Below are positions 28,356 to 58,648 of a stretch of 64,000 bases of DNA, piece after piece; position 1 is the first letter of the stretch; each line of letters starts with the position of its first letter. Location: sequence record OR896824.1. The stretch is one strand, 5' to 3'. The translations under genes and the position numbers were made by a program. The DNA is from Escherichia phage SmurfNell. Under the pieces are notes generated by a model. It was not told where the DNA came from, did not search any database, and saw nothing but the letters and a program-made list of their open reading frames with translations.

Positions 28356-28384
28356 TTGCTAAACGCTTCAAAATTTCGTATAAT
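28356..28384 (+). promoter_or_regulatory. T5-type sigma70 promoter
   Basis: AAAAATTCATTTGCTA-17-CGTATAATAT plus conserved CATAAATTGAT leader. Confidence 0.65.
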
Positions 28385-28422
28385 ATATCTCATAAATTGA
28401 TCAACAAAAAGGAAAACAAATA

Positions 28423-28938
28423 ATGGCTAAGCAGAAAAACGCAAAAACTCAGGCAGCTCCGGCAGTTAAAACTTTCGCTCAGACCGAAGCCAATCGTAAG
28501 GCTCGTCTGGAACGTCATCTGCGTAAGCATCCTACTGATGCTCAGGCTCAGACTGCCCTGAAGTCTGCGGCTCCGGTTCGCCAGAAGCCGAAGGCCAAGA
28601 ACTCTACTCGCGCAACTGCTAAGCAGGTTGTGTTCATCAAGGGTGAAGGTCATAAGTCTGTACCGGTAACTCTGAGCTTTAACGGCGGTGCTGAGATGTT
28701 CGCCCGCAACGGTATGGCTCTGAAAGACTACGAAAAAGCAGTCAATCAGAAGCGTAAGCCAATGGCTGACGTAATGCGTGAATCCCGTGGACAGTTTGGC
28801 TCCGTTAAACCGAATATTTTCGGTGTAGAGTATAGCCGTGACAACGTTCGCGCTCTGTGCTACGGTATCGGTATTAAGTTTACTGGTGCTTCTGATCGTA
28901 AATCCGCTAAACCTACTCGTAAGCGTAAAGCGAAGTAA
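28423..28938 (+). CDS. hypothetical highly basic protein (171 aa)
   Basis: Downstream of promoter 28356-28384; Lys/Arg-rich with markedly host-like optimal codons (CGT, CTG, GCT). Confidence 0.6.
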   Translation: MAKQKNAKTQAAPAVKTFAQTEANRKARLERHLRKHPTDAQAQTALKSAAPVRQKPKAKNSTRATAKQVVFIKGEGHKSVPVTLSFNGGAEMFARNGMALKDYEKAVNQKRKPMADVMRESRGQFGSVKPNIFGVEYSRDNVRALCYGIGIKFTGASDRKSAKPTRKRKAK

Positions 28939-28999
28939 TGATTGATGGGGCGAAAGCCCCATATACTAACTCTTTCTCTGACTAATTAAGGATATTTTT

Positions 29000-29215
29000 A
29001 TGTTCTCTAAGAAACCACGTTCCGTTACTGAAATCGTTGCTTCCTTTACCACTATTACTGATGAACTTCAAGCTCGTATTGAAGCTGACCAGAAAACTGC
29101 TGCTGATATTCAGAAACAGCAGGAAGAACTCGCTCTGAAACTGGCTGAAACCAATAAGAGTGAAAAATCTGCTCAAACTATTAAGGAAAATATCCTTAAA
29201 CTGCTGGGCAAGTAA
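29000..29215 (+). CDS. hypothetical coiled-coil protein (71 aa)
   Basis: ORF with RBS, followed by a terminator hairpin at 29224-29247. Confidence 0.5.
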   Translation: MFSKKPRSVTEIVASFTTITDELQARIEADQKTAADIQKQQEELALKLAETNKSEKSAQTIKENILKLLGK

Positions 29216-29223
29216 TTTAAATC

Positions 29224-29247
29224 AGGGGGCGAAAGCCCCTCTTATTT
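29224..29247 (+). terminator. putative terminator
   Basis: AGGGGGC-GAAA-GCCCCT hairpin followed by CTTATTT; a similar GGGGC-GAAA-GCCCC hairpin at 28947-28960 lacks a T-run. Confidence 0.45.
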
Positions 29248-29256
29248 GGAGAAACT

Positions 29257-29469
29257 ATGCGTAACTTCGTTGCAAAGAATGATTTTAACCGTGCTAGCAC
29301 TCACAAGTCTGCTAGAGACTACACTCGTCTTTCTAAACATGAGCTTCTAGAAGAAATCATGGAAGAAAACTGGGATGTTAGTGAAAATGGAACAGACCTG
29401 TTTGAAGAAGAGGAACTTCCTCTGAAAGACCCCAAACAGTGGGAGTCTATTAAAGAGACAGCTCTTTAA
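29257..29469 (+). CDS. hypothetical acidic protein (70 aa)
   Basis: ORF with GGAGA RBS. Confidence 0.5.
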   Translation: MRNFVAKNDFNRASTHKSARDYTRLSKHELLEEIMEENWDVSENGTDLFEEEELPLKDPKQWESIKETAL

Positions 29470-29499
29470 TAGTTTTCTACAACAATAAAGGACATAATT

Positions 29500-30201
29500 A
29501 TGAAATTCAAGCCCTTTGGTATGCTGGACATTGAATCTCTAGGTACTCCAGGAAATTGCGGTACTACTCATATTGCAATGCCTTCTTTCGCTTTTGTAGC
29601 GATGCACGGAATTGATAAAGATCCTGATCTGGTATTCGTTACTCTAGACGTTCAAGATCAGCTTAATGCGGGTGCTAAGGTAACTGCCTCTACTATTGCA
29701 TTCTGGATGGATCAAGCTAAAAACAGTCCATCTGCGCTCCATATTATGGAGGCTCTAAATGGTCGTAATCCTAAGCTGATTGCCTTCCGTGATGGTAAGC
29801 ATCACTGCACTAATGACGTAGGCTCTAATTATGCTGCCTTCTCTATGGCTCAGAACATTATGGAATTGTCTCTAGGAGATAATGCTCTGTATTACGGCAA
29901 TGGCCCAGAGTTTGATATGACAATCTACTCTGCAAATACGTTCCATGCCGGAACCCATGAAGAAATAGTTCCGTGGAAATTCTGGAACTTAGGTAACGTT
30001 CGATCTTTCCGTAATCAGTGGATGCAAGCTGGTTATAGCTATAAAGATCTAGAAGCCGAAGGTGCTAGCTGGGCAAAAGCTAAAATGGAAAAGATGGACA
30101 CCATTCGTTATGGAATCTATCCTGTGAAGCATGATCCAGCATTCGATGCTTTAGTTGAAAGTTATTGTGTAGCCGTCATGATCGAAAAAATCAAAATTTG
30201 A
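29500..30201 (+). CDS. putative DEDD-type 3'-5' exonuclease
   Basis: Exo I-like MLDIESLGT, Exo II-like GPEFDM and Exo III-like HDPAFDALVESY motifs. Confidence 0.5.
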   Translation: MKFKPFGMLDIESLGTPGNCGTTHIAMPSFAFVAMHGIDKDPDLVFVTLDVQDQLNAGAKVTASTIAFWMDQAKNSPSALHIMEALNGRNPKLIAFRDGKHHCTNDVGSNYAAFSMAQNIMELSLGDNALYYGNGPEFDMTIYSANTFHAGTHEEIVPWKFWNLGNVRSFRNQWMQAGYSYKDLEAEGASWAKAKMEKMDTIRYGIYPVKHDPAFDALVESYCVAVMIEKIKI

Positions 30202-30202
30202 T

Positions 30203-30231
30203 TTGCTTTCAGCTCCAAAATTCTGTATAAT
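30203..30231 (+). promoter_or_regulatory. T5-type sigma70 promoter
   Basis: TTGCTT-17-TGTATAATAT plus ATTCATAAATTTGAGAGAA leader. Confidence 0.65.
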
Positions 30232-30271
30232 ATATTCATAAATTTGAGAGAACAACAAAAGGAAAATAATT

Positions 30272-31147: not shown

Positions 31148-31527
31148 TAATTTAAAAGACTAGTAAATCGGTAGACGAAAGCCCAAGCATCTTACCTCGC
31201 AGCAGCGGTTGAAATACGAGGTTAAATAAGACCGCTGACCATACTATAAAGTATAATCTATTGGAGATTATGTTTATTACACCAGCCTCTTAAGCTGAAC
31301 TGTAAAAACGGTCGTTGGTAGTACCAACACAACTTCAAAGATCAACGCTCAAGTATGAAAGCTGAAAAGTTAAAAGAACTCAAACTTCTAACCTTCTAAA
31401 GCTAAAAGATGCAAAGTATTCGTTGATGATTCAAACCCTAGATCAAAGGTACATGGCTCATAAGATATGGCCTGTGGCGCCTCTAGGCTGTTTATCGGTT
31501 CACTAGTCTCTCAATTTAAAAATGTAT

Positions 31528-31556
31528 TTGCTAATTAGTTTAGTTTTCTATATAAT
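31528..31556 (+). promoter_or_regulatory. T5-type sigma70 promoter
   Basis: TTGCTA-17-TATAATAT plus TTTTTAAATTGATGAGACGAGG leader. Confidence 0.65.
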
Positions 31557-31586
31557 ATATTTTTAAATTGATGAGACGAGGCTATT

Positions 31587-31904
31587 ATGATTTTTCATAT
31601 TCTGATTGATGATGTTCGTGACCTGCATGGGATGGATATTATCATTCGAACCCCCGAAGCCGCTATTGAGTTTCTGAATACAACCGATACCACCGGACAT
31701 TTCGTTTATATGGATAATGATCTGGCTGTAGATGGTATGGAAGGTTATCAAATTCTTCGTTTACTCCTAGAATTTGGACAGAGACCCAAGAAAGTGGTAC
31801 TAGTAACCTCGAACCCTGTAGCTAAGCAGAACATGCGTAATGATTTGCTTGACGAAGGGTATCAAGAAAGCCCTAATCGTATTGAGTACGATTGGCCGGA
31901 GTAA
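31587..31904 (+). CDS. hypothetical protein with receiver-domain-like features (105 aa)
   Basis: Downstream of promoter 31528-31556; ILIDDVRD ... YMDNDLAVDGMEG ... VVLVTS pattern resembles a CheY-like receiver fold. Confidence 0.4.
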   Translation: MIFHILIDDVRDLHGMDIIIRTPEAAIEFLNTTDTTGHFVYMDNDLAVDGMEGYQILRLLLEFGQRPKKVVLVTSNPVAKQNMRNDLLDEGYQESPNRIEYDWPE

Positions 31905-31909
31905 ATAAA

Positions 31910-32359
31910 ATGAAGGCAGCTTTGCTTCTAATAGCTGCCCTAACCTATAGCTTCAATAGTCATGCTACCTACGACTCAAAGCAGATTGATTGCATTGCAA
32001 AAAATATCTACTTCGAAGCACGAGGTGATGGCACAAAGGGAATGATTGCAGTTGCACAGGTTACTAAAAACCGTGTAAACTCCGGTAAATTCCCTGATTC
32101 TTACTGTAAAGTAGTATATCAGTCTAACCAATTCAGCTGGACAGCTAAAAAACCTAGGGTTGATAAAACAGATGAGACTTGGCAAGTTGCTAAGAACTTA
32201 GCTAGAGTGATATACTACGTTGATTTACCACAAGATCCAACACAGGGGGCGTTATACTTCCATAGCGGTAAAGATAAACCGTACTGGACAAAGAAGTTTA
32301 AGAAAACAACGAAGATTCAAGGCCATACGTTCTACAAGCCTGTGGTTAAGAAAACTTAA
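31910..32359 (+). CDS. secreted cell-wall hydrolase (SleB-like)
   Basis: Signal peptide MKAALLLIAALTYSFNSHA followed by IDCIAKNIYFEARGDG...AVAQVTKNRV, typical of SleB-type hydrolases; ATG 31910 has GGAG RBS. Confidence 0.65.
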   Translation: MKAALLLIAALTYSFNSHATYDSKQIDCIAKNIYFEARGDGTKGMIAVAQVTKNRVNSGKFPDSYCKVVYQSNQFSWTAKKPRVDKTDETWQVAKNLARVIYYVDLPQDPTQGALYFHSGKDKPYWTKKFKKTTKIQGHTFYKPVVKKT

Positions 32360-32367
32360 AAATTCGA

Positions 32368-32396
32368 TTGCTTAAAGACTTAAATTTCTGTATAAT
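32368..32396 (+). promoter_or_regulatory. T5-type sigma70 promoter
   Basis: TTGCTT-17-TGTATAATAC plus TTTCATAAATTAATGAGAGGAAG leader. Confidence 0.65.
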
Positions 32397-32427
32397 ACTT
32401 TCATAAATTAATGAGAGGAAGCGAAAT

Positions 32428-32598: not shown

Positions 32599-33041
32599 TG
32601 GAAGAAAATATTCTAAATGTTTTGCGTAGGGCTTTGCAGGAATCTAAGATTGATGGCTCTGATAAAGAGGTAGCTAAAAGCTACCAGACCATAATCGAAG
32701 ATCTTCAGCGTGTTGATAAAGACTTCATTACTTCTGAACAGTTTGTGTCTTATCTCAAAGCTCAGCTGAAAAGCATTAATCAGACGAAAGCTAAACTTCA
32801 TGGTCAAGACCTTGATAATTATAGCTTGCAGTCTGCTCAGTATGAATATATACTGAACAAATGGCTACAACAGTATCTGCCGCCTCAGCTTTCTGATTCT
32901 GAGATTCGCAAATACTTTGCAGAATTAGTTAAGTTGAACCCTGGGATTACGAAGAGTATGCTGATGAAAGCGATTAAGGAAGAATTCCCTGGTCGTTATG
33001 ACGGTGGCATCGCTGCTCAGGTTGCTGGCGAATTTAACTAA
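32598..33041 (+). CDS. hypothetical protein (147 aa)
   Basis: ORF overlapping the preceding stop (ATAATGG). Confidence 0.55.
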   Translation: MEENILNVLRRALQESKIDGSDKEVAKSYQTIIEDLQRVDKDFITSEQFVSYLKAQLKSINQTKAKLHGQDLDNYSLQSAQYEYILNKWLQQYLPPQLSDSEIRKYFAELVKLNPGITKSMLMKAIKEEFPGRYDGGIAAQVAGEFN

Positions 33042-33049
33042 AAATTGAT

Positions 33050-33078
33050 TTGCTAAACGCTTCAAAATTCTGTATAAT
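33050..33078 (+). promoter_or_regulatory. T5-type sigma70 promoter driving the ORF-free 33.1-33.9 kb region and tRNA-Arg
   Basis: TTGCTA-17-TGTATAATAG plus ATTCATAAATTAGAGAACAG leader; no ORF for about 950 nt downstream. Confidence 0.65.
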
Positions 33079-33084
33079 AGATTC

Positions 33085-33937
33085 ATAAATTAGAGAACAG
33101 CGAGCCGATTACGCTGAGTGAGTTTAGTGATTCCTACTAGGATAGCTACTCCACTGAATAGAGTCGGTGAGTTGGAGACTAGTAAGTACTCTGAGAGAGG
33201 CTACGAGCTAACGCTTATTGCTATTGATAGGGAACTGAAAATCTGCGGAAAACTCGGGAGCTGTCCCGAAATCTCGTAAACTCTTCTCTAGTTTATGTTA
33301 GTGGGGTGTCGAACTGACTTATGTGATAACACTGCCGTCCTAGTATAAACGGTAATATCAAACCGTAACTGGTGGAAGATGCAGGTTCGAATCCTGCGGT
33401 CGGAAAGAATCAGATAACTCGGGCTTATACCGGATAAGCATTCGCTGCTGTAGTACATACTATGACGGTTCAGGAGGTACGCCTCCTGATCAGTATTAGG
33501 TTAGAATCGAAACAGCTAAACCACGAGGAAACCTGACGGCCTCAACCAAACTCGGAACTCGGGATCACTGCCTAGTGTGTACCCCGTTTAACCTGAGACT
33601 AGGCATCCAGCTTCGCATCGAAAATCGGAGGTGCGATTCTAACAGACCGCGTGAATATGAGAGTGGGAAACGCTGACATGAGAGATGTCACTAATGGTGC
33701 CCAATAGTACAGGTAATTCGCGATAATTCCTGTTGAGCGGCAGCAGTAGGCTGGGAGTCATGACCTAAGCCTAACCGAGTTCTTCACATACGGAGAACAT
33801 AACCACAAAGTCACCCTGACTTAAACTGGAAGATATTGTCTGACGGAAGGGCTGCAGAGCTTAATCTGAGGGGGCTGACCCTACCTACCGTCGGGTATCT
33901 TTAAGAGCTTTTATAAGAGTTCTTAAAAATACCTAAA
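33085..33937 (+). other. ORF-free transcribed region (putative ncRNA / tRNA precursor leader) containing a degenerate tRNA-like element
   Basis: About 850 nt downstream of promoter 33050-33078 with no ORF of 60 aa or more on either strand; ends at tRNA-Arg(TCT); contains several hairpins (e.g. CAGGAGG-TACG-CCTCCTG at 33487-33504). Confidence 0.35.
33346..33417 (+). other. degenerate tRNA-like element (canonical T-arm, 8-nt putative anticodon loop, imperfect acceptor stem)
   Basis: GCAGG-TTCGAAT-CCTGC T-arm and ACGGT/ACCGT hairpin with 8-nt loop; acceptor pairing has a U-U mismatch and no CCA. Confidence 0.25.
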
Positions 33938-34239: not shown

Positions 34240-34250
34240 TAAGGAAATAT

Positions 34251-35260: not shown

Positions 35261-35407
35261 AGGCAAAAGAAAAGCCCATAAGTTATTCAACTAAGGTCTT
35301 TAGTATTTAATTCTTTAATTCTTTAGAATCATATACTATTATTGTAGCAACAACGTGCTACCACTAAATGCCTTGAGATTTTTCCACTAAAAAGTTTAAA
35401 AATTCGA

Positions 35408-35436
35408 TTGCTTGAACGCTAAATTCTCTGTATAAT
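35408..35436 (+). promoter_or_regulatory. T5-type sigma70 promoter upstream of nadR-pnuC
   Basis: TTGCTT-17-TGTATAATAT plus ATTTATAAATTTGAGAGAGGAATCAAAT leader. Confidence 0.7.
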
Positions 35437-35466
35437 ATATTTATAAATTTGAGAGAGGAATCAAAT

Positions 35467-36522
35467 ATGATTAAGACTGGTCTAGTAATTGGTAAGTTCG
35501 CGCCATTAACGCGTGGTCATATTAACCTAATAAACACAGCAGCAACTATGTGTGAACGAGTTATTGTTGTAGTTAGTCATGATAATCGTTGGCTGGATAA
35601 GCAGAACACACGTGATCAGGAAGTATTACAGTTAAAGAATCGACTTCGTTGGTTAGAACAAACTTACGCGGATATTGAGCACATTTCGGTAGAGTACATT
35701 ATTGAAGATGATATTCCTGAATATCCGAATGGTTGGCCGGAATATGCTAGAATCCTTAATGAAAATTACGGACATTTGCCTGAGATCACCGTTTTCTCTA
35801 GCGAACTAGACTATGATGCAGAATATAAGAAATATCTGCCGAAGTTTGGTCATTATATTGTAGATTCTGATCGGACTCGTGTTCCAATCTCAGCTACAAT
35901 GATTCGTAATGATCTTATGAAGTATTGGGAGTTTCTTCCTAGCGTAGTTCGTAAAGATTACGTGCGTAAGGTTGTAATCATTGGGACTGAAAGCTCGGGA
36001 AAGACTACTTTAACAAAATACCTTGCGAAGCTATACAACACTTCGTGGGTAGAAGAATATGGCCGAACGTATTGTGAAGTTGATCTAGTTGGTAACGAAA
36101 ATCTACTTATCAGTGAAGATTACAGTAAAATTGCGTTCAGACACAAAGAGCTAGAGTTTGAGGCAGAACGTACTGCAAATAAGATCATGTTTGTAGACAC
36201 AAATGCTTTTATTACTGAGTTCTACCACAGACTTTATGAACATCGTAAGAATCCTGTGGTTACAGCAATTGCAAAAGAAGAACATTACGATTTAGTAATT
36301 GTTCTAGCGCCTACTGTTAAGTGGGTAGATGATGGTTTACGTATTAACTCCGATCGTTCAATTACTTCTGAACTGTTCGAGCAGATGAAGAAAGAATTTC
36401 CAAATCAGTTCCCTGAAGGGCGTACTGTTTACATCGACTCCCCGGACTACAAAGTTCGTATGGACGAAGCAGTAAACGCAGTAGACTGGCTGATTCATCA
36501 CTTTAACGTTGGAGAGTTTTAA
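35467..36522 (+). CDS. nadR: NadR-like bifunctional NMN adenylyltransferase / ribosylnicotinamide kinase
   Basis: Cytidylyltransferase (H/T)xGH motif region (GKFAPLTRGHINLI) followed by a P-loop kinase domain (VVIIGTESSGKTTL); start 35467 after GAGAGAGGAA RBS. Confidence 0.75.
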   Translation: MIKTGLVIGKFAPLTRGHINLINTAATMCERVIVVVSHDNRWLDKQNTRDQEVLQLKNRLRWLEQTYADIEHISVEYIIEDDIPEYPNGWPEYARILNENYGHLPEITVFSSELDYDAEYKKYLPKFGHYIVDSDRTRVPISATMIRNDLMKYWEFLPSVVRKDYVRKVVIIGTESSGKTTLTKYLAKLYNTSWVEEYGRTYCEVDLVGNENLLISEDYSKIAFRHKELEFEAERTANKIMFVDTNAFITEFYHRLYEHRKNPVVTAIAKEEHYDLVIVLAPTVKWVDDGLRINSDRSITSELFEQMKKEFPNQFPEGRTVYIDSPDYKVRMDEAVNAVDWLIHHFNVGEF

Positions 36523-37207: not shown

Positions 37208-37236
37208 TATAGCCCTCGCTTAGAGGGCTATTATAC
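37208..37236 (+). terminator. putative terminator downstream of pnuC
   Basis: TAGCCCTC-GCTTA-GAGGGCTA hairpin followed by a weak T-run. Confidence 0.4.
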
Positions 37237-37248
37237 AGAAATTTTCAC

Positions 37249-37277
37249 TTGCTTAATATAGAAAATTTCTGTATAAT
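37249..37277 (+). promoter_or_regulatory. T5-type sigma70 promoter
   Basis: TTGCTT-17-TGTATAATAT plus ATTTATAAATTCGAGAGAGGAATCAAAC leader. Confidence 0.7.
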
Positions 37278-37307
37278 ATATTTATAAATTCGAGAGAGGA
37301 ATCAAAC

Positions 37308-37604
37308 ATGAAACGCATTGTACTTGCATTGACTCTAGTATCTACTTCTGTATTTGCTGCTCCGCAACAGGAACTTTGTCAAGTTCAGGTTTGTAATAAG
37401 CTAGAACGATTTACTCTAAACATTTGGTCCCATATTAAAGATAATATGGGTGAACAGTGTTTTGATATTGTTCTGCCAAAAGAACAGGCTATTCCTGGTG
37501 CTGTTCTTAGCTCAGAATCACGTTGGTGGCAGGGTTCTTCTATCAATCCAACTAAGAAGTCAGTGACACGTATCAAACAAGTATATCAGTGCAAGGTTCA
37601 GTAA
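37308..37604 (+). CDS. secreted hypothetical protein (98 aa)
   Basis: Signal peptide MKRIVLALTLVSTSVFAAP; downstream of promoter 37249-37277. Confidence 0.55.
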   Translation: MKRIVLALTLVSTSVFAAPQQELCQVQVCNKLERFTLNIWSHIKDNMGEQCFDIVLPKEQAIPGAVLSSESRWWQGSSINPTKKSVTRIKQVYQCKVQ

Positions 37605-37612
37605 AATTTCAC

Positions 37613-37641
37613 TTGCTTAATGTCGAAATTTTCTGTATAAT
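37613..37641 (+). promoter_or_regulatory. T5-type sigma70 promoter driving the first tRNA block
   Basis: TTGCTT-17-TGTATAATAT; tRNA-Ser starts 15 nt after the -10. Confidence 0.65.
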
Positions 37642-37655
37642 ATATTCATAAATTC

Positions 37656-37749
37656 GGAAGATTAACCCTAATGGTAAGGGAGCTGTTTGCTAAACAGCCA
37701 GTAGCTGTGGAGACACGGTGTGCCAGTTCGAATCTGGCATCTTCCTCCA
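37656..37749 (+). tRNA. tRNA-Ser (anticodon GCT), type II
   Basis: Acceptor GGAAGAT/ATCTTCC, anticodon stem-loop GCTGT-TTGCTAA-ACAGC, long variable arm, T-arm GCCAG-TTCGAAT-CTGGC, CCA. Confidence 0.7.
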
Positions 37750-38897: not shown

Positions 38898-38926
38898 CTC
38901 CTCCAAGCAGAAATTTTAAAAATGTA

Positions 38927-38956
38927 CTTGCTTTTTACTTAAGATTTCTGCTATAA
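38927..38956 (+). promoter_or_regulatory. T5-type sigma70 promoter
   Basis: TTGCTT-18-TGCTATAATAG plus TTATATAAATTGATGAAGGAG leader. Confidence 0.6.
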
Positions 38957-38987
38957 TAGTTATATAAATTGATGAAGGAGTTAACGA

Positions 38988-39263
38988 ATGTCAAAACGTG
39001 TTACTGCAACTGGTGTTGAAAGTGCTGTTTGTAAATCCTGGGGTGGCTGGGAAGGTGAGATTGAATGGCTTTATTTCTACGACGTAGAACTTCTGCCGGA
39101 AGTCAAAGCTAAATGTGTGGAAGCCGGTATGGCTCCTGATGCAAAGGCTGATATCGAAATCACCATGCCTAAGCTAGAAGGTCGTGTAATTACGCTCAAT
39201 GATGATTATGAAGAAGTGTTCGAGCTTCCCTTCAAACTGAGTGTCACTCCTAGCTTCGAGTAA
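38988..39263 (+). CDS. hypothetical protein (91 aa)
   Basis: Downstream of promoter 38927-38956; GAAGGAG RBS. Confidence 0.55.
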   Translation: MSKRVTATGVESAVCKSWGGWEGEIEWLYFYDVELLPEVKAKCVEAGMAPDAKADIEITMPKLEGRVITLNDDYEEVFELPFKLSVTPSFE

Positions 39264-39299
39264 CTGATATAGCACTGAGCAAGTTCTTTAAAATTTGAC

Positions 39300-39328
39300 T
39301 TGCTCAGTCCTTCAAATCTTGATATAAT
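39300..39328 (+). promoter_or_regulatory. T5-type sigma70 promoter upstream of the tRNA-Tyr block
   Basis: TTGACTTGCTC ... GATATAATAG; -35 either TTGACT or TTGCTC at 17-nt spacing. Confidence 0.55.
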
Positions 39329-39391
39329 AGTTATCTAATTTGGAAACATATTTAAAAGTGTTTAAACTAGTATTTGAATATTTCTAAATAT

Positions 39392-39749: not shown

Positions 39750-40022
39750 ATGCATCCTGAAAACTTCTTTATTTACTGTGCGGATAAGTCATTAAAACGC
39801 AGAATTAACAAAGTCTACCATTATCGTGCTAGTCAACAGCCTTATGTTTATGCTTTTGATGGAGAAACCATTCCACTAAAGCAGTTGGCATGTGATTACA
39901 TGGTCTTGAAGAACTTTGATGAGACAAAGATCTCAAGCGTTCATAATCGACAGAATCCATTAACGTGGAAGTATAAGAAGAAAAAGAAAGGCATCAAATT
40001 TCTGAAAAATGTAGTTGCTTAA
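39750..40022 (+). CDS. hypothetical protein (about 90 aa)
   Basis: ORF after tRNA-Phe; AAGGAG RBS. Confidence 0.45.
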   Translation: MHPENFFIYCADKSLKRRINKVYHYRASQQPYVYAFDGETIPLKQLACDYMVLKNFDETKISSVHNRQNPLTWKYKKKKKGIKFLKNVVA

Positions 40023-40043
40023 ATCCTTAAAGTTCTGTATAAT
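40015..40043 (+). promoter_or_regulatory. T5-type sigma70 promoter
   Basis: TTGCTT-17-TGTATAATTA plus TTACATAAATTGAACTGGAG leader. Confidence 0.6.
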
Positions 40044-40072
40044 TATTACATAAATTGAACTGGAGAAGCAAC

Positions 40073-40297
40073 ATGACAGAACAAGAATTAAAAGAACGTA
40101 AGCTGGTAATGCTTCGCTTACTAAACATTTTCTCTGGTATGGATGGTGGTATTGACTTCGTTCAACTACGCACTTTTGTAGAAGAAGCTGAAGGCGAATC
40201 TATTACTAAAATCCTTAAACATATGGGTTTATTACTAGACGCTGCTAATGTAGCTACTGAATATAAATTAGAAGATCTACCGGAGCGTGTTTCATGA
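40073..40297 (+). CDS. hypothetical protein (74 aa)
   Basis: Downstream of promoter 40015-40043; CTGGAGAAG RBS. Confidence 0.5.
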   Translation: MTEQELKERKLVMLRLLNIFSGMDGGIDFVQLRTFVEEAEGESITKILKHMGLLLDAANVATEYKLEDLPERVS

Positions 40298-41450: not shown

Positions 41451-41698
41451 AATTTAGGTTTCTGCTTCCTAGAGAACTGACGCCTAGATAAACAAGGCGA
41501 TGAGTTTCCGGCCGGTTCTAGTCGCTGAAAATCCTCCCGACCAGGTAGGTGTAAGTAAACGAAAGTTTACTTATTAAGTAAGTCCGACACATCGGCGGGT
41601 GTGTTCTAGTACTTAAAGAAGGTCTCGCAAACTTTCTCGCTAGCATGAGTTGATAGCTCGGTGACTTACCTAATAAGTAAATTTATTAAAAAATGTAG

Positions 41699-41727: not shown

Positions 41728-41759
41728 ATATTTTATAAAGTGAGTTAACAAAGAATATT

Positions 41760-45722: not shown

Positions 45723-45737
45723 AAATTTAAAAATTCA

Positions 45738-45766
45738 TTTGCCTTCTCTCTTATTTCTTGTTATAA
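45738..45766 (+). promoter_or_regulatory. T5-type sigma70 promoter
   Basis: TTGCCT-17-TGTTATAATAT plus TTATATAAATTAATGAGAGGG leader. Confidence 0.6.
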
Positions 45767-45797
45767 TATTTATATAAATTAATGAGAGGGAAACCAA

Positions 45798-46091
45798 ATG
45801 AAACGTTATCTTTCTGTCGTGTTCCAAACTGGTGGTCAACGCTACACTTATGAATTTCCTGAGTCCTGGAAAATTAAAGAAGGTGATCAAGTTGTTGTAT
45901 TAACACCTCGTGAAGGCTTCAAAGTAGTAACGGTTAAACAAGTATTTCCAAAAGATCACGAACCATCTAAGTCTATTCAGTACAAGATGATTCATGGTCT
46001 AGTTCGTAAAGTACCACGAACTGAGGTAGAAGTAGATAAGACTGGTGAAGCTAAATACCAGTATACTTCTTACTTAGATGAAATGATGTAA
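45798..46091 (+). CDS. hypothetical protein (97 aa)
   Basis: Downstream of promoter 45738-45766; GAGAGGGAAA RBS. Confidence 0.55.
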   Translation: MKRYLSVVFQTGGQRYTYEFPESWKIKEGDQVVVLTPREGFKVVTVKQVFPKDHEPSKSIQYKMIHGLVRKVPRTEVEVDKTGEAKYQYTSYLDEMM

Positions 46092-48067: not shown

Positions 48068-48084
48068 TTTCATAAATAATTCAT

Positions 48085-48113
48085 TTGCTAAAACCCTCTC
48101 CTTTTGATATAAT
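48085..48113 (+). promoter_or_regulatory. T5-type sigma70 promoter
   Basis: TTGCTA-17-GATATAATAT plus TTATATAAATTGATGAGAGGG leader. Confidence 0.65.
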
Positions 48114-48143
48114 ATTTATATAAATTGATGAGAGGGCTTTGAA

Positions 48144-48416
48144 ATGAAAGAAGCAGAAATTAATGAAATGGCTAGAATATTCATCGTTTCCTATATGCAA
48201 GGCAGTTGCAATAGTTTATTCGAGTCTGCTATAGTATTTCAGGAAATGTTAGCCGAGAAAGGCGTACATATGGAAGATACTGAAATTGAAGATCTTCTAA
48301 TGGAAACTTGTAGTAGTGCTGAAGTCTTCCAGTGTGGTAACTGTAATTGGTGGTGTCCAGAGCATGATCGTTCTGAAGAAGGTTCCTACTGTTCCGATTG
48401 TGAAGGAGAAGAATAA
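48144..48416 (+). CDS. Cys-rich putative zinc-binding protein (90 aa)
   Basis: Downstream of promoter 48085-48113; CGNCNWWC...CSDC. Confidence 0.55.
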   Translation: MKEAEINEMARIFIVSYMQGSCNSLFESAIVFQEMLAEKGVHMEDTEIEDLLMETCSSAEVFQCGNCNWWCPEHDRSEEGSYCSDCEGEE

Positions 48417-50161: not shown

Positions 50162-50197
50162 AGCCCAGCCTGCACTTTTGCGACTGGGCTATTTTTG
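50162..50197 (+). terminator. rho-independent terminator
   Basis: AGCCCAG...CTGGGCT stem followed by ATTTTTG. Confidence 0.55.
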
Positions 50198-50211
50198 TAA
50201 TAAAATTTTAG

Positions 50212-50240
50212 TTGCATAGATGCCCAAACTTTTGTATAAT
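50212..50240 (+). promoter_or_regulatory. T5-type sigma70 promoter
   Basis: TTGCAT-17-TGTATAATAT. Confidence 0.6.
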
Positions 50241-50271
50241 ATGTTTATAGATTGAGGCAAGAGGATTAAAT

Positions 50272-54319: not shown

Positions 54320-54736
54320 ATGTTTGCAGAACTATTCACCATGATATTACTAGGAGTATGGAAAATAAGCCTAGTAGTTTTCATCTTAATGATAATTCTC
54401 ACTGTTGTCGCACTAGTTACCCAAAATGATACATTAAAGAAAGTCGTTCATGGGCTAGAGTATATAATTATGGGCACATTCGGCGTTTGCAAATGCAACT
54501 GCCAGAGGAATACGAAATATTGTTGGCTTTGGATGGAGTTAGAGAACTGCATCACAGTAGCCCTGGCTGTCTCATTCGGTATGATTCTTATGGCCCTTAC
54601 TCTAGCATTGATACCACTAATGTTAGCTGGGGGAGTCACGGCTTATTTCACCCTTTTCTCCCCTATACTTATGTATTCAATATATCCAATAACTATGTAC
54701 TTAGTTAGGAAGAGATTCCCACATCAAGCACACTAA
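54320..54736 (+). CDS. polytopic membrane protein (138 aa)
   Basis: Three to four hydrophobic helices. Confidence 0.5.
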   Translation: MFAELFTMILLGVWKISLVVFILMIILTVVALVTQNDTLKKVVHGLEYIIMGTFGVCKCNCQRNTKYCWLWMELENCITVALAVSFGMILMALTLALIPLMLAGGVTAYFTLFSPILMYSIYPITMYLVRKRFPHQAH

Positions 54737-54749
54737 TATAAAAAAGTAG

Positions 54750-54778
54750 TTGACTTTCCACTGAAATTTTTATATAAT
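54750..54778 (+). promoter_or_regulatory. T5-type sigma70 promoter
   Basis: TTGACT-17-TATATAATAT plus TTGTATAAATTGAATCAGAGGAG leader. Confidence 0.65.
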
Positions 54779-54811
54779 ATTTGTATAAATTGAATCAGAG
54801 GAGTTTCACAA

Positions 54812-55514: not shown

Positions 55515-55542
55515 CCCAGATCTTAGCTGATCTGGGTTTTTT
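55515..55542 (+). terminator. rho-independent terminator
   Basis: CCCAGATC-TTAGCT-GATCTGGG hairpin followed by TTTTTT. Confidence 0.75.
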
Positions 55543-55547
55543 ATTAC

Positions 55548-55576
55548 TTGCTTTCTGCTAAAAATTTTGATATAAT
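55548..55576 (+). promoter_or_regulatory. T5-type sigma70 promoter
   Basis: TTGCTT-17-GATATAATAT plus ATGTATAAATTGATGAGAGGAG leader. Confidence 0.65.
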
Positions 55577-55607
55577 ATATGTATAAATTGATGAGAGGAG
55601 TATCACA

Positions 55608-55988: not shown

Positions 55989-56851
55989 TGAAAAAAGAAT
56001 TTAACCTGCACGAAATGTTAGTAGTACCAGACGATGTTAACCTGTTCTTCGTAGGAGATATTCACGGCTGTAATGATATGCTGGAAGATGCTCTTAAACT
56101 AGCAGGATATAAAGAAAAGCGTGACTATGTTGTCTGTGTTGGCGACTTAATTGACCGTGGCCCGCAGAACTTACAGGTTCTAGCCAAATTCTTATATAAC
56201 CCACGCTTCCGCAGCGTTCGTGGCAACCATGATCAGTTTATGATTGCTGGTGACTACGCCAACTGGATGTATAATGGTGGAATGTGGGCAATGAATGATC
56301 TGGATACCGATACAATTAAAGGTATCGCAGAAGATATGGCAGTTAAAATGCCAGTATTCATGACTGTACTCCATCGTGGCAAGAAATACGGTGTTGTTCA
56401 TGGTGGAATACCATTCCAATATAAAGATGCGGGATTCGATGTACATACACCTAATTGGGACGATATTATTGATCATATCGCTGCAAGTGAAAATGATCAT
56501 AATGATCATCCTAGTTATTACATTGAGCCATATCTATGGGATCGTGATGTAATTCAGGAAATTGGTTTTCATCTGTCTAAGCAAGGTGCAGAGCACCCCT
56601 ATTTCCAGCGTTATGCAGGATTTAAAGATGAACTGACTGTGGAAGTGCCAGAAGTTGAAAGTGTAGATTTCGTATTCCATGGTCACACTGGTGTTCCTTA
56701 CCCAATTCTGTACAAGAACCGTGTTTATCTCGATACTGGCGGTGTTTTCAACGGGCAGTTGACGGTTGCGCAAGTTAATGATGAAGCCGGTAAAATCATG
56801 ACATTTACCACAGATAAAAATGATAGCTGTGGTGTACAGAGGATTCTATAA
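55973..56851 (+). CDS. Ser/Thr protein phosphatase (PPP-family metallophosphoesterase)
   Basis: GDIHGC, GDLIDRG and RGNHD metallophosphatase motifs. Confidence 0.8.
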   Translation: MDDSIMKKEFNLHEMLVVPDDVNLFFVGDIHGCNDMLEDALKLAGYKEKRDYVVCVGDLIDRGPQNLQVLAKFLYNPRFRSVRGNHDQFMIAGDYANWMYNGGMWAMNDLDTDTIKGIAEDMAVKMPVFMTVLHRGKKYGVVHGGIPFQYKDAGFDVHTPNWDDIIDHIAASENDHNDHPSYYIEPYLWDRDVIQEIGFHLSKQGAEHPYFQRYAGFKDELTVEVPEVESVDFVFHGHTGVPYPILYKNRVYLDTGGVFNGQLTVAQVNDEAGKIMTFTTDKNDSCGVQRIL

Positions 56852-57219
56852 TGGAACGTGAAGAACGTTATGTAGTTATAAAGCTATCTGATATTGAGAA
56901 AGCCATAGAATTAGGGCATATCACTCAAAGTAACTTTACTACTTTGGAGCATATCTTGTCCAAACTATGGTATAGTCGAGCACAACGTGGTAAAGAGGAT
57001 CTTAAAACAGTCGTAGTAGAGCATGATTGGCCAGAGTACGAAGAAGTCTGGAAGATGCTAGAGAATCGTGTTGAATTTGAACAAGCACGACAGGAAGAGG
57101 TTGACAAAGGCTACCAAGAAGCGAAAGAGCACCATGAGGTTTATGATGAAATATTCAAACTTCGTGGTATTAGTAGTTATTGTCAGGGTTGGAATAAATA
57201 TGCGGAGGAAGTTCTGTAA
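56851..57219 (+). CDS. hypothetical protein (122 aa)
   Basis: ORF overlapping the previous stop (ATAATGG). Confidence 0.5.
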   Translation: MEREERYVVIKLSDIEKAIELGHITQSNFTTLEHILSKLWYSRAQRGKEDLKTVVVEHDWPEYEEVWKMLENRVEFEQARQEEVDKGYQEAKEHHEVYDEIFKLRGISSYCQGWNKYAEEVL

Positions 57220-57425
57220 TGAAGAGATTACTACTATTATCAGTACTAATACTAGCTGGATGTGATTCCTACGACGATAATATGAGATTTACTGCAGAAG
57301 ATACAAAACACTTATGTGATGTAGCTGGAGGTGAGCTAGATTATTCCAGTATTCAAATTGGACTCACAAAAGGTATATTCTACGATAGTTATACTATTAC
57401 ATCCACATGTGTAAGGAATAAATAA
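57219..57425 (+). CDS. small lipoprotein (68 aa)
   Basis: Lipobox signal peptide MKRLLLLSVLILAGC. Confidence 0.5.
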   Translation: MKRLLLLSVLILAGCDSYDDNMRFTAEDTKHLCDVAGGELDYSSIQIGLTKGIFYDSYTITSTCVRNK

Positions 57426-58009
57426 TGAAAGTTAAATTCTGGAGTGAACTCCACTTAGACCACCCAGGGATTCTTCGTTTTCGCCCCTGGTTTAAGAACA
57501 TGAAAGAGCACGATGAGTATATCCTAGATACTTTGTCCAAGCACATTGGCAAGCGTACAAAACTTGTGCTGCTAGGAGATAGTGCCGTGGGGCGAGAAGG
57601 GTTGGCCAAGTTGAAGTCGGTTATCCACAACGTGCCTAACCAACTAATTATGGGAAACCACGATGCTGAGCGTCAGGGTCTGCATATTAAAGATCTTGTA
57701 GACGTTTATGATGATATTCAGGCTCTAGGTAAGCAAACAGGTGGTGGCAAGAAGTTTTGGCTGTCACATTGTCCATTGCACGAAGCAGAACTTCGTGGTA
57801 GGCTAAACATTCACGGACATGTGCACACCAATTCTGTACGTGACCAACGCTATATCAACGTCTCCTTTGAAATGAGTAAGACACCTATTTCCTTGGAAGA
57901 TATCGTATCTGGCAAGTTTCAGACGTGGAACAAGATTGTTGATCCAGTAACTGGTGTTGTATCTGAAATTGATGCTGGCGATTTGGCGATGGGAGTATAC
58001 GATGTTTGA
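57425..58009 (+). CDS. calcineurin-like metallophosphoesterase
   Basis: LLGDS, GNHD and GHVH motifs. Confidence 0.65.
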   Translation: MKVKFWSELHLDHPGILRFRPWFKNMKEHDEYILDTLSKHIGKRTKLVLLGDSAVGREGLAKLKSVIHNVPNQLIMGNHDAERQGLHIKDLVDVYDDIQALGKQTGGGKKFWLSHCPLHEAELRGRLNIHGHVHTNSVRDQRYINVSFEMSKTPISLEDIVSGKFQTWNKIVDPVTGVVSEIDAGDLAMGVYDV

Positions 58010-58111
58010 TTTTGATGGAATGACTCGTGATATAGTTGTAGCAGCAGCAATAATTGTTGTTGTTTCTTTCTTACTTGGCGTAGGAATAGGTATTTTATTA
58101 TAAAAATTCAG

Positions 58112-58140
58112 TTGCTAAAATACCTTAATTTCTGTATAAT
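58112..58140 (+). promoter_or_regulatory. T5-type sigma70 promoter
   Basis: TTGCTA-17-TGTATAATTA plus CTTTATAAATTGATGAGAAGG leader. Confidence 0.65.
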
Positions 58141-58170
58141 TACTTTATAAATTGATGAGAAGGAATCAAA

Positions 58171-58602
58171 ATGCAAAAGATTGATAAAGCACTTTTAATC
58201 GCAACAGCAGATAAGTTTGAGCAAGTTAAAGCTACTTTTAAGGCAGTCTTTCAGTCCTATGTTCAAGACAAATCTAACCCTATTTCTGAGCGTTTGATGA
58301 TGTGGGAATGTTTTGCTTGCAATGCTCTGCTAATTTCCGATTATAATGGAGAAGTATCTGAGGAATTGCATGAGATCTTTATTAATGAGGATACTCCACG
58401 CTATCAGTTAGTGAACTTCCAAGATCTAGCTGAGCAAGTTATTCCTGATGATCTTTGGGACAAGTATTACGGTGATCCTGAAGAAGATGGTATGGAACCT
58501 GAGAAGTGCATCGAACTGATCTGTAAGGATCACATTGAAATTGCTGAGAAATTTGAGCTAGTATTTGCTTCTGAGTTCTCAGGTTTCGTTAACGATTGGT
58601 AA
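58171..58602 (+). CDS. hypothetical acidic protein (143 aa)
   Basis: Downstream of promoter 58112-58140; GAAGGAA RBS. Confidence 0.55.
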   Translation: MQKIDKALLIATADKFEQVKATFKAVFQSYVQDKSNPISERLMMWECFACNALLISDYNGEVSEELHEIFINEDTPRYQLVNFQDLAEQVIPDDLWDKYYGDPEEDGMEPEKCIELICKDHIEIAEKFELVFASEFSGFVNDW

Positions 58603-58619
58603 GTAAATAAAAAATTCAG

Positions 58620-58648
58620 TTGCTTCTAGCTTTAAAATTCTGTATAAT
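58620..58648 (+). promoter_or_regulatory. T5-type sigma70 promoter
   Basis: TTGCTT-17-TGTATAATAA plus GTTCATAAATTAATGAGAGAGG leader. Confidence 0.65.

What the first reader, a model, noticed from the sequence alone, without database searches (positions are those of the whole stretch)
28356..58648. Repeated promoter-leader cassette: more than 25 near-identical early promoters with a conserved initial transcribed sequence
Across the window the same about 65-nt cassette recurs on both strands: A-tract, TTGCTw, 17-nt spacer, TGTATAATAT, then ATTCATAAATTGATGAGAGGAatcaaa and the start codon. Conservation extends beyond the -35/-10 hexamers into the transcribed leader and RBS, suggesting selection for a common 5' UTR (translation efficiency, RNase protection or a regulator binding site) and providing dispersed homology for recombination.
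Basis: seen in the sequence. Interest (0 to 1): 0.5.

Follow-up and report, generated by a model that had tools for sequence, protein, structure and literature searches.

The report
Known T5-type early promoter cassettes
The repeated 75-nt cassette is real, but it is the already described and annotated set of strong early promoters of T5-like phages (including the orthologue of the PN25 'T5 promoter' used in expression vectors), so the finding is ordinary.

Summary
The window is the early-gene region of a T5-like coliphage (Epseptimavirus, up to 99.9% identical to phage SuperGirl). There are 32 cassettes in the window: 20 in the stated interval, all on the + strand, and 7 on the - strand at 2.2-17.2 kb. 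With sites chosen on the hexamers alone (24 found, 0.1 expected), conservation still runs from -45 to +17.

"Near-identical" is overstated: mean pairwise identity is 56%.

21 of the 32 cassettes are at least 80% identical, in syntenic order, to 75-bp promoter features annotated in the T5 reference genome. These include P-K28a (75/75), P-N26, P-N25, P-H207 and P-D/E33. The consensus, including the -43 and +1 AT-rich blocks, was published for T5 and AKFV33.

The +1..+8 block ATAAATT persists at promoters that drive tRNAs. It changes less between orthologues than the -35 hexamer (0.7% vs 2.7% mismatch). This fits the published role of the N25 initial transcribed sequence in promoter escape. Positions +9..+17 are the ribosome-binding site.

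I found no RNA structure and no Rfam family in the leaders. Mosaic breakpoints are no more frequent at cassettes than at other gene junctions.

Verdict: already known, low interest.

The parts
2227..2301 (-). Cassette (-50..+25), +1 about 2251; spacer 18; upstream of the DNA polymerase gene
   Evidence: PWM 36.9 bits; 73/75 identical to T5 promoter feature 70987-71061
6240..6314 (-). Cassette, +1 about 6264; orthologue of T5 P-K28a (ligase subunit B gene)
   Evidence: PWM 71.0; 75/75 identical to T5 P-K28a
7606..7680 (-). Cassette, +1 about 7630; upstream of a 72-aa ORF and the ligase subunit A gene
   Evidence: PWM 60.7; 64/75 to T5 65284-65358
8824..8898 (-). Cassette, +1 about 8848; orthologue of T5 P-N26 (D3 gene); 52-nt leader
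   Evidence: PWM 58.4; 72/75 to P-N26
9856..9930 (-). Cassette, +1 about 9880; orthologue of T5 P-N25 (D2 helicase gene). +1..+20 ATAAATTTGAGAGAGGAGTT is identical to T5 P-N25
   Evidence: PWM 66.0; 67/75 to P-N25, one difference from -38 to +20
13850..13924 (-). Cassette, +1 about 13874; about 367-nt leader before the replication-origin-binding protein gene
   Evidence: PWM 52.3; 72/75 to T5 58999-59073; first ORF start at +368
17162..17236 (-). Cassette, +1 about 17186; abuts a terminator hairpin
   Evidence: PWM 54.7; hairpin ends at -45; 56/75 to T5 55708-55782
19891..19965 (+). Cassette, +1 about 19941; first + strand promoter (PhoH-like gene)
   Evidence: PWM 59.0; 72/75 to T5 53638-53712
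23489..23563 (+). Cassette, +1 about 23539; the ATG of an HNH endonuclease ORF sits at the predicted +1
   Evidence: PWM 47.9; HNH_3 E=1.2e-16; homology with 4 relatives breaks at -4
26584..26658 (+). Cassette, +1 about 26634; abuts a terminator hairpin; no T5 orthologue found
   Evidence: PWM 49.6; hairpin; best T5 match only 47/75
27990..28064 (+). Cassette, +1 about 28040; -35 is TTACTT
   Evidence: PWM 40.6; 69/75 to T5 46337-46411
28341..28415 (+).
   Evidence: PWM 51.9; 70/75 to P-H207
30188..30262 (+). Cassette, +1 about 30238
   Evidence: PWM 68.4; 72/75 to T5 44393-44467
31513..31587 (+). Cassette, +1 about 31563
   Evidence: PWM 63.9; 70/75 to T5 43067-43141
32353..32427 (+). Cassette, +1 about 32403; orthologue of T5 P-D/E33
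   Evidence: PWM 67.2; 70/75
33035..33109 (+). Cassette, +1 about 33085; no ribosome-binding site or ORF; leads into non-coding RNA and tRNA-Arg. Corresponds to T5 P16-17, which precedes 'RNAX'
   Evidence: PWM 65.9; no ORF; 58/75 to P16-17; T5 annotation
35393..35467 (+). Cassette, +1 about 35443; orthologue of T5 P15a, but here it drives NadR-like and PnuC genes
   Evidence: PWM 69.9; 71/75 to P15a
37234..37308 (+). Cassette, +1 about 37284; paralogue-like copy of the cassette at 35443 (75% identical)
   Evidence: PWM 66.6
37598..37672 (+). Cassette, +1 about 37648; tRNA-Ser begins at +9. Syntenic with T5 P15b
   Evidence: PWM 63.0; tRNA at +9; T5 P15b sequence
38914..38988 (+). Cassette, +1 about 38964; spacer 18; orthologue of T5 P15c
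   Evidence: PWM 37.0; 69/75
39285..39359 (+). Cassette, +1 about 39335; drives tRNA-Tyr (at +58); orthologue of T5 P14a
   Evidence: PWM 55.7; 65/75
40000..40074 (+). Cassette, +1 about 40050; orthologue of T5 P14b
   Evidence: PWM 59.5; 64/75
41684..41758 (+). Cassette, +1 about 41734; drives tRNA-Pro (at +27); corresponds to T5 P13a
   Evidence: PWM 47.8; 57/75
43087..43161 (+). Cassette, +1 about 43137; drives a 256-nt structured non-coding RNA, then tRNA-Ala; orthologue of T5 P13b
   Evidence: PWM 62.4; 66/75; fold z = -6.45
45724..45798 (+). Cassette, +1 about 45774; orthologue of T5 'P11' (tRNA region)
   Evidence: PWM 66.3; 70/75
48070..48144 (+). Cassette, +1 about 48120
   Evidence: PWM 64.7; 64/75 to T5 26722-26796
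50197..50271 (+). Cassette, +1 about 50247; -35 is TTGCAT; preceded by a terminator
   Evidence: PWM 50.9; 73/75 to T5 24443-24517
54735..54809 (+). Cassette, +1 about 54785; -35 is TTGACT
   Evidence: PWM 49.2; 53/75 to T5 19368-19442
55533..55607 (+). Cassette, +1 about 55583; abuts a terminator hairpin; the downstream gene is replaced in relatives
   Evidence: PWM 59.2; hairpin; breakpoint at +19
58097..58171 (+). Cassette, +1 about 58147; corresponds by sequence and synteny to the T5 P-F30 site
   Evidence: PWM 61.0; T5 site at locus L004 position 6808; P-F30 annotation
58605..58679 (+).
   Evidence: PWM 65.9; 71/75 to T5 16245-16319
61671..61745 (+). Weak, atypical member (TTGACG -35, no ATAAATT); lies inside an ORF
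   Evidence: PWM 35.0; 56/75 to T5 13212-13286, a promoter feature annotated inside gene T5.023

Best explanation
The cassettes are the host-sigma70-dependent early promoters of a T5-like phage (Demerecviridae), each with its short leader. Every conserved block has an assigned role in the well-studied member T5 P-N25:
- the A-tract at -45..-39 is an UP-type contact for the RNA polymerase alpha subunit;
- TTGCTw is the -35 element;
- the AT-rich spacer block (-21..-16) is a second UP-like or bending element;
- TATAAT is a consensus -10, with a true extended-10 TG in about 40% of members;
- an A/T-rich 6-nt discriminator follows;
- ATAAATT at +1..+7 is the start of an AT- and purine-rich initial transcribed sequence. 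It lets polymerase escape from an otherwise escape-limited, very tightly bound promoter.

In about two thirds of the cassettes the purine run at +9..+17 (GAGAGGA) is the Shine-Dalgarno sequence, and the start codon lies at about +25. The unit therefore gives a short, unstructured, efficiently translated leader. The same promoter module, without the ribosome-binding site, drives tRNA and stable-RNA transcription units.

Shown here: recurrence, position-specific conservation, orthology to annotated and named T5 promoters, early-class specificity, retention at non-coding units, and purifying selection between orthologues and across genera.

Inferred from the literature on N25: the biochemical role of each block, and the extension of that role to the other 31 cassettes.
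For: - Identity of the window: megablast gives 99.9% to Escherichia phage SuperGirl (Epseptimavirus), and gene content matches the T5 early region.
- Site counts: 24 exact hexamer-defined sites vs 0.10 expected; 32 by PWM.
- Information profile from -45 to +17.
- Orthology: 21/32 cassettes are at least 80% identical over 75 nt, in syntenic order, to 'promoter' features of T5 NC_005859. These include P-K28a 75/75, P-N26 72/75, P-H207 70/75, P-D/E33 70/75 and P-N25 67/75.
- The AKFV33 record annotates the same sites as 'T5 promoter consensus TTGCTT (N17-18) TATAATA (Wang et al. 2005)'.
- Niu et al. 2012 report 32 such promoters, with TTGCTw, TATAATA, AAAAATT at -43 and TAAATT at +1 (PMC3326045).
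- Klimuk et al. 2020 state that all T5 early promoters share an ATATT discriminator (PMC7472727).
- N25 is escape-limited. [quoted passage not shown] UP elements lie near -49 and in the spacer near -19 (PMC12464699; PMC5961368).
- ATAAATT is retained at tRNA and non-coding-RNA promoters.
- Orthologue mismatch rates: +1..+8 0.7%, -35 2.7%, spacer 13.6%.
- The same cassette is present in Klebsiella, Vibrio and Pantoea Demerecviridae.
- T5 pre-early and late promoters lack it.
Against: - No transcription data exist for this phage. Start sites and timing are inferred by orthology.
- The escape role of the initial transcribed sequence is demonstrated only for N25 and its engineered variants.
- 11 of 32 cassettes match no annotated T5 feature at 80% or more. 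Two (2251, 61721) deviate in the +1 block.
- The orthologue mismatch analysis used pairs pre-selected for at least 62/75 identity and anchored on TATAAT. Only the relative rates inside the cassette are informative.
- I could not read the primary Bujard-lab papers (not held). Their content is cited through later papers and from my own knowledge.
Confidence: 0.88

Rival explanations
1. The conserved leader acts mainly at the RNA level as a common 5' UTR. An A/U-rich 5' end plus a strong Shine-Dalgarno sequence would be selected for translation efficiency or mRNA stability.
For: - A GAGAGGA-type purine run at +9..+17 is followed by a start codon at +22..+35 in about 22 of 32 cassettes.
- The leaders are essentially unstructured, with mean MFE -2.3 kcal/mol. 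That is compatible with open ribosome-binding sites.
Against: - The most conserved block, +1..+8, is retained where nothing is translated: tRNA-Ser at +9, tRNA-Pro at +27, and structured non-coding RNA at 43137.
- Leader MFE does not differ from shuffles (z = -0.02), so there is no sign of selection on structure.
- No Rfam family matches.
- For N25, changing +3..+20 lowers RNA output about 10-fold at the transcription step (PMC12464699).
- This reading is probably true for +9..+17 only.
Confidence: 0.25
2. The cassettes are portable recombination modules, like the PeSL cassettes of T4-type phages. Their dispersed homology would mediate modular shuffling of early genes.
For: - 16 of 118 homology breakpoints against five relatives fall within 15 bp of a cassette, against 6.2 expected if uniform (p = 4e-4).
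- Some replaced segments are bounded by two cassettes: 41743-43102 against LmqsSP1, and 35354-37627 against T5 and LmqsSP1.
- The cassettes at 35443 and 37284, which flank the NadR/PnuC module, are 75% identical.
Against: - Against the proper null there is no enrichment. 17/31 junctions with a cassette and 49/105 junctions without one carry a breakpoint (Fisher p = 0.54). For junctions with a gap of 40 bp or more the counts are 17/30 vs 18/30.
- Three cassette-adjacent indels are HNH homing-endonuclease genes, which move by their own mechanism.
- Exact shared words between cassettes have median 9 nt and maximum 29 nt.
- Only 6 of 32 cassettes abut a terminator hairpin, so the composite PeSL architecture is absent.
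Confidence: 0.1
3. The discriminator plus +1..+8 block is a class-specific operator. A phage factor (for example the RNAP-binding gpT5.026, or D5) or a sigma70-dependent promoter-proximal pause would read it to shut off early transcription when late genes turn on.
For: - The block is present in early promoters but absent from T5 pre-early and late promoters.
- It is more conserved between orthologues than the -35 hexamer.
- It is conserved in Demerecviridae of four host genera.
- Klimuk et al. propose that the early-specific ATATT discriminator underlies the differential effect of gpT5.026 (PMC7472727).
- TAAATT at +2..+7 matches TATAAT at 4 of 6 positions, including the A at position 2 and the T at position 6 (seen in the sequence).
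Against: - There is no direct evidence. Purely in vitro host-RNAP experiments on N25 already explain a strong ITS effect without any phage factor.
- gpT5.026 has only a moderate effect in vitro.
- To my knowledge no sigma-dependent pausing has been reported for N25.
Confidence: 0.15
4. The similarity reflects only recent duplication or gene conversion of one promoter, without position-specific selection.
For: A few pairs share long exact words, up to 29 nt (12 pairs share 20 nt or more). Examples are 35443/37284 and 37284/37648.
Against: - Mean pairwise identity is only 56%. Variation is concentrated in the spacer, while functional positions are near-invariant.
- Each cassette has its own syntenic orthologue in T5, AKFV33 and LmqsSP1.
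- The same position-specific pattern exists in distant genera.
Confidence: 0.03

Closest known systems
Bacteriophage T5 early promoters (P-N25, P-N26, P-K28a, P-H207, P-D/E33, P13-P16 series). Sources: Gentz & Bujard 1985; Wang et al. 2005 consensus TTGCTT-N17-18-TATAATA; annotated as 75-bp features in NC_005859
   Same: - Same consensus in every block: AAAAwTT at -43, TTGCTw, 17-18 bp spacer, TATAATA, an ATATT-type discriminator, and TAAATT at +1.
- Same genes downstream and same order along the genome.
- 21 of 32 cassettes are at least 80% identical to a T5 feature; P-K28a is 75/75.
   Different: - Nothing of kind differs.
- A few cassettes sit in front of different genes: the P15a orthologue drives NadR/PnuC here, and HNH endonuclease genes are inserted next to three cassettes.
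- Two or three cassettes (26634, 37284) have no T5 counterpart.
AKFV33 promoter set (Niu et al. 2012, PMC3326045)
   Same: Also 32 promoters per genome. The published logo has TTGCTw, TATAATA, -43 AAAAATT and +1 TAAATT.
   Different: AKFV33 belongs to a different genus (Tequintavirus rather than Epseptimavirus). That paper does not separate the +1..+8 block from the ribosome-binding site and does not test it at tRNA promoters.
PeSL (promoter-early stem-loop) cassettes of T4-type phages (Arbiol et al. 2010, PMC2839356; Comeau et al. 2014, PMC4122927)
   Same: Many copies of a strong sigma70 early promoter motif are dispersed among small early genes. Some copies abut a terminator and lie at indel boundaries.
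   Different: The stem-loop is part of only 6 of 32 cassettes. Breakpoints show no excess over other gene junctions. The phage family is unrelated.

Membership tests
T5-type early sigma70 promoters | -35 TTGCTw and -10 TATAAT(A) separated by 17-18 bp | tested here: met
   24 exact sites vs 0.10 expected; 32 by PWM, of which 30 have a 17-bp and 2 an 18-bp spacer
T5-type early sigma70 promoters | AT-rich block at about -43 (AAAAATT) and AT-rich block at +1 (TAAATT) | tested here: met
   A in 28-29 of 32 at each of -45..-42; +2..+7 TAAATT in 26-30 of 32 per position. These match the blocks described in PMC3326045
T5-type early sigma70 promoters | A/T-rich discriminator of the ATATT type, shared by early promoters | tested here: met
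   -6 is A in 29/32, -5 is T in 22/32, -3 is T in 28/32; statement in PMC7472727
T5-type early sigma70 promoters | Positional orthology to mapped or annotated T5 promoters in the early region | tested here: met
   21 of 32 are at least 80% identical over 75 nt, in colinear order; annotations
T5-type early sigma70 promoters | Transcription by host RNAP with early kinetics, starting 6-7 nt after the -10 | not testable with these tools
   Needs RNA 5'-end mapping in infected cells
PeSL-type mobile regulatory cassette | Composite of an early promoter and an adjacent terminator stem-loop | tested here: not met
   Only 6 of 32 cassettes have a hairpin plus T-run ending between -81 and -44
PeSL-type mobile regulatory cassette | Indels and replacements between relatives preferentially bounded by the cassettes | tested here: not met
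   17/31 vs 49/105 junctions with a breakpoint, Fisher p = 0.54. The sample is five genomes only
Structured cis-regulatory leader RNA (riboswitch, thermosensor or protective 5' hairpin) | Conserved secondary structure in the leader, or a match to an RNA family | tested here: not met
   Rfam returned tRNAs only; leader MFE z = -0.02
Sigma70-dependent promoter-proximal pause element | A -10-like hexamer in the initial transcribed region, with a pause about 10-12 nt downstream | tested here: inconclusive
   TAAATT at +2..+7 matches TATAAT at 4 of 6 positions (seen in the sequence). Pausing itself cannot be tested here

The most novel reading that the evidence does not exclude
The discriminator plus +1..+8 block (ATwTTy-ATAAATT) may be more than an escape-optimised sequence. 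It could be a family-wide, early-class-specific recognition signal. It is conserved in Demerecviridae infecting Escherichia/Salmonella, Klebsiella, Pantoea and Vibrio, and it changes less between orthologues than the -35 hexamer. A conserved phage factor (gpT5.026, D5 or another) or a sigma70-dependent pause would read it to time the early-to-late switch, whose mechanism in T5 is still unknown.
Probability: 0.12. Interest if true: 0.5.

Novelty: already known. Interest (0 to 1): 0.1.

Why it matters
The finding matters little as a discovery. These promoters have been studied since the 1980s, they are annotated in reference genomes, and one of them (N25) is the commercial 'T5 promoter' and a standard model for promoter escape.

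This analysis adds some modest points:
- It separates the +1..+8 block cleanly from the ribosome-binding site, using the tRNA-driving copies as natural controls.
- It shows that +1..+8 is the slowest-evolving non-hexamer part of the cassette between orthologues and across four host genera.
- It gives a negative result for cassette-mediated mosaicism.

These points bear on the open question of how T5 switches off early transcription, but they do not answer it.

Tried and rejected
- The generic sigma70 consensus scan (TTGACA/TATAAT) is not selective here: 51 hits against 47 +/- 7.5 in shuffles. It lists only the TTGCTA members. The family is visible only with its own -35.
- Rfam at gathering thresholds returned only tRNAs and no leader family.
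- Leader folding showed no structure beyond shuffles, so the RNase-protection and riboregulator ideas were dropped.
- The PeSL-like recombination idea looked promising against a uniform null but vanished against the gene-junction null. Several cassette-edge indels turned out to be HNH endonuclease genes.
- Recent duplication was rejected from pairwise identities and locus-specific orthology.
- Splitting the cassettes into two subtypes (TGn vs nTG) gave only marginal, uncorrected associations with the discriminator (p about 0.03-0.04). I did not pursue this.
- The primary papers (Gentz & Bujard 1985; Kammerer 1986; Deuschle 1986; Hsu 2006) could not be retrieved.
- One repeat finder on the 13.5-14.0 kb leader failed on a strand argument and was not repeated.

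Full report
**What the window is.** Megablast of 28000-36000 finds 519 phage records. The best is Escherichia phage SuperGirl (Demerecviridae, Epseptimavirus) at 99.9% identity. The SuperGirl annotation over the corresponding 64 kb shows the classical T5 early region. On the - strand lie the replication genes: DNA polymerase, primase, helicase, a split NAD-ligase, D2, D3 and the origin-binding protein. On the + strand lie nucleotide-metabolism genes, a block of many small ORFs and a large tRNA cluster. ARAGORN finds 30 tRNAs at 33.9-46.2 kb. Transcription diverges at about 17.2-19.9 kb, where cumulative GC skew is lowest.

**Checking the observation.** TGTATAATAT with at most 1 mismatch occurs 26 times (8.2 +/- 2.8 in shuffles). 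The 21-nt leader consensus with at most 3 mismatches occurs 5 times (0.01 expected). Exact TTGCT-N18-TATAAT occurs 24 times against 0.10 expected. An iterated position-weight scan converges on 32 sites: 7 on the - strand (2.2-17.2 kb) and 25 on the + strand (19.9-61.7 kb). The ends of that interval are exactly a -35 start (28356) and a -10 end (58648).

To avoid circularity I measured information content only in the 24 sites chosen on the two hexamers:

| Block | Bits |
|---|---|
| -50..-36 | 10.6 |
| spacer | 7.7 (concentrated at -21..-16) |
| discriminator | 4.3 |
| +1..+8 | 7.95 (random 8-mers 0.02 +/- 0.22) |
| +9..+17 | 5.3 |
| +18..+30 | 1.5 |
| +31..+50 | about 0 |

The cassettes are not 'near-identical'. 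Mean pairwise identity over -50..+25 is 56%, with a maximum of 77%, against 26% for random 75-mers.

**What it is.** The cassette at 9856-9930 (-), upstream of the D2 helicase gene, is T5 P-N25. From -38 to +20 it differs by one base from the T5 sequence, and its +1..+20, ATAAATTTGAGAGAGGAGTT, is identical to T5 P-N25. The T5 reference record NC_005859 annotates about 40 'promoter' features, most of them exactly 75 bp long, many with the historical names. 21 of the 32 window cassettes are at least 80% identical, ungapped over 75 nt, to one of these features. Their order is strictly colinear: T5 coordinates run from 71 kb down to 13 kb as window coordinates rise.

| T5 promoter | Identity to window cassette |
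|---|---|
| P-K28a | 75/75 |
| P-N26 | 72/75 |
| P15a | 71/75 |
| P-H207 | 70/75 |
| P-D/E33 | 70/75 |
| P11 | 70/75 |
| P15c | 69/75 |
| P-N25 | 67/75 |
| P13b | 66/75 |
| P14a | 65/75 |
| P14b | 64/75 |

The AKFV33 record labels the same sites 'sequence similarity to T5 promoter consensus: TTGCTT (N17-18) TATAATA (J. Wang et al. 2005)'. The AKFV33 paper reports 32 promoters with TTGCTw, TATAATA, an AT-rich -43 region (AAAAATT) and an AT-rich +1 region (TAAATT) (PMC3326045). Klimuk et al. 2020 state that all T5 early promoters identified share an ATATT discriminator and differ from late promoters mainly there (PMC7472727). My own comparison agrees. The annotated T5 pre-early (P-H22, P011) and late (P-G25, P-J5) promoters lack TTGCTw and ATAAATT, whereas N25, N26, K28a, H207, D/E33, 31A and 31B have them. 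The finding is thus a rediscovery of a known, annotated promoter class.

**How it works.** For P-N25 the literature assigns a role to each conserved block (PMC12464699; PMC5961368):
- a canonical UP element upstream of -35;
- TTGctt/17 bp/TATAAT as the core;
- a second, AT-rich UP-like element in the spacer around -19;
- a 6-bp discriminator;
- an AT- and purine-rich native initial transcribed sequence.

N25 forms an extremely stable open complex and is rate-limited at escape. [quoted passage not shown]

Three results from this window argue that this DNA/RNAP-level role, rather than a 5' UTR role, explains the +1..+8 block in the whole family.
1. The block is retained where nothing is translated. 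tRNA-Ser starts at +9 of the cassette at 37648, tRNA-Pro at +27 of 41734 and tRNA-Tyr at +58 of 39335. The cassettes at 33085 and 43137 lead into non-coding RNA.
2. Between orthologues in T5, AKFV33 and LmqsSP1 (55 pairs), +1..+8 has 0.7% mismatches. The -35 hexamer has 2.7%, +9..+17 3.6%, the discriminator 4.8%, the spacer 13.6% and the flanks about 23%. The pairs were pre-selected for overall cassette identity, so only the relative values count.
3. The same pattern, including ATAAATT, appears in hexamer-selected sites of Klebsiella phage PWKp9S (Sugarlandvirus), Vibrio phage River4 (Thalassavirus) and Pantoea phage AAS21.

The +9..+17 purine run is a Shine-Dalgarno sequence. About 22 of 32 cassettes have a start codon at +22..+35, with a mode of +25.

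The leaders have no significant secondary structure (mean MFE -2.3 kcal/mol, z = -0.02) and match no Rfam family.

**The recombination idea.** I aligned the window to five relatives (SuperGirl, T5, AKFV33, LmqsSP1, atrejo) and collected 118 distinct homology breakpoints. Sixteen lie within 15 bp of a cassette, against 6.2 expected under a uniform null (p = 4e-4). However, 89 of the 118 lie at gene junctions. Junctions with a cassette are no more often broken than junctions without one: 17/31 vs 49/105 (Fisher p = 0.54), and 17/30 vs 18/30 for junctions with a gap of 40 bp or more. Three cassette-adjacent indels are HNH homing-endonuclease ORFs. Exact words shared between cassettes have a median of 9 nt and a maximum of 29 nt. 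Only 6 of 32 cassettes abut a terminator hairpin. This differs from the composite promoter/stem-loop PeSL cassettes of T4-type phages, which do mediate shuffling (PMC2839356, PMC4122927). Cassette-mediated exchange is not excluded, but this sample does not support it.

**Verdict.** The feature is already known. The residual novel reading is that the discriminator/ITS block is an early-class operator read by a phage factor or a pause. It is compatible with the early-class specificity and family-wide conservation shown here, but it is untested.

Noticed in passing
window 23539-24036 (+): A 165-aa HNH endonuclease ORF (Pfam HNH_3, E=1.2e-16) is inserted between the cassette at 23489-23563 and nrdB. 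Its ATG lies exactly at the predicted +1, so the transcript from this promoter would be leaderless for it. The insert is absent from SuperGirl and LmqsSP1, and other, non-homologous sequence of similar length (annotated as HNH endonuclease genes) occupies this position in T5 and atrejo. Homology to all four breaks at -4 of the cassette.
   Followed up: partly
window 9924-10382 (-) and 19331-19822 (+): Two more HNH_3 endonuclease ORFs are present. One sits just upstream of the P-N25 orthologue. The other sits in the divergent-promoter region and has a weak AP2-domain hit. Both are presence/absence polymorphisms among relatives.
   Followed up: partly
window 43137-43392 (+): The transcript from the P13b-type cassette up to tRNA-Ala has no ORF and folds very stably (-91.5 kcal/mol, z = -6.45 against shuffles). 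It begins with a hairpin, GATGAGGAgaaaTCCTCATC, that sequesters the Shine-Dalgarno-like run. T5 annotates 'RNA2H, stable RNA with unknown functions' at this position. No Rfam family matches.
   Followed up: partly
window 33085-33937 (+): The cassette at 33085 has no ribosome-binding site. About 850 nt of mostly non-coding sequence follow before tRNA-Arg. This stretch includes a borderline tRNA-like Rfam hit at 33334-33405 (29.3 bits, threshold 29) that ARAGORN does not call. T5 annotates 'RNAX, stable RNA with unknown functions' here.
   Followed up: no
window 13507-13874 (-): A leader of about 367 nt lies between the cassette at 13874 and the replication-origin-binding protein gene. It contains further promoter-like hexamers (13848-13819 and 13782-13754). 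It could hold an origin or a regulatory region. My repeat search on it failed and was not repeated.
   Followed up: no
all 32 cassettes: There are two sub-types. Thirteen have TG at -15/-14 (a true extended -10), often with the discriminator ATTTAT and +8..+10 GAT. Thirteen have TG directly abutting TATAAT (cTGTATAAT), often with -1 = C. The associations are marginal (Fisher p = 0.03-0.07, uncorrected). The sub-type appears conserved between the orthologues inspected (N25, N26, K28a).
   Followed up: partly
window 1-64000 compared with SuperGirl (L001/L002): Identity to the closest relative is mosaic: 99.7% at 26.5-32 kb, 98.9% at 32-38 kb and 96-98.5% over 0-26.5 kb. It is only 76-95% over most of 38-63 kb, with many small gene replacements in the tRNA and small-ORF region.
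   Followed up: partly
window 35443-37308 (+): The NadR-like adenylyltransferase plus PnuC transporter module is absent from T5 and LmqsSP1. It is bracketed by two cassettes that are 75% identical to each other and share a long identical core, tctgTATAATatatttATAAATT.GAGAGAGGAATCAAA. This is the best single candidate for a cassette-bounded module.
   Followed up: partly
window 17236-19891: This is the divergent promoter pair and strand switch. Cumulative GC skew reaches its minimum here (about 18-20 kb), which coincides with the change of coding strand.
   Followed up: no
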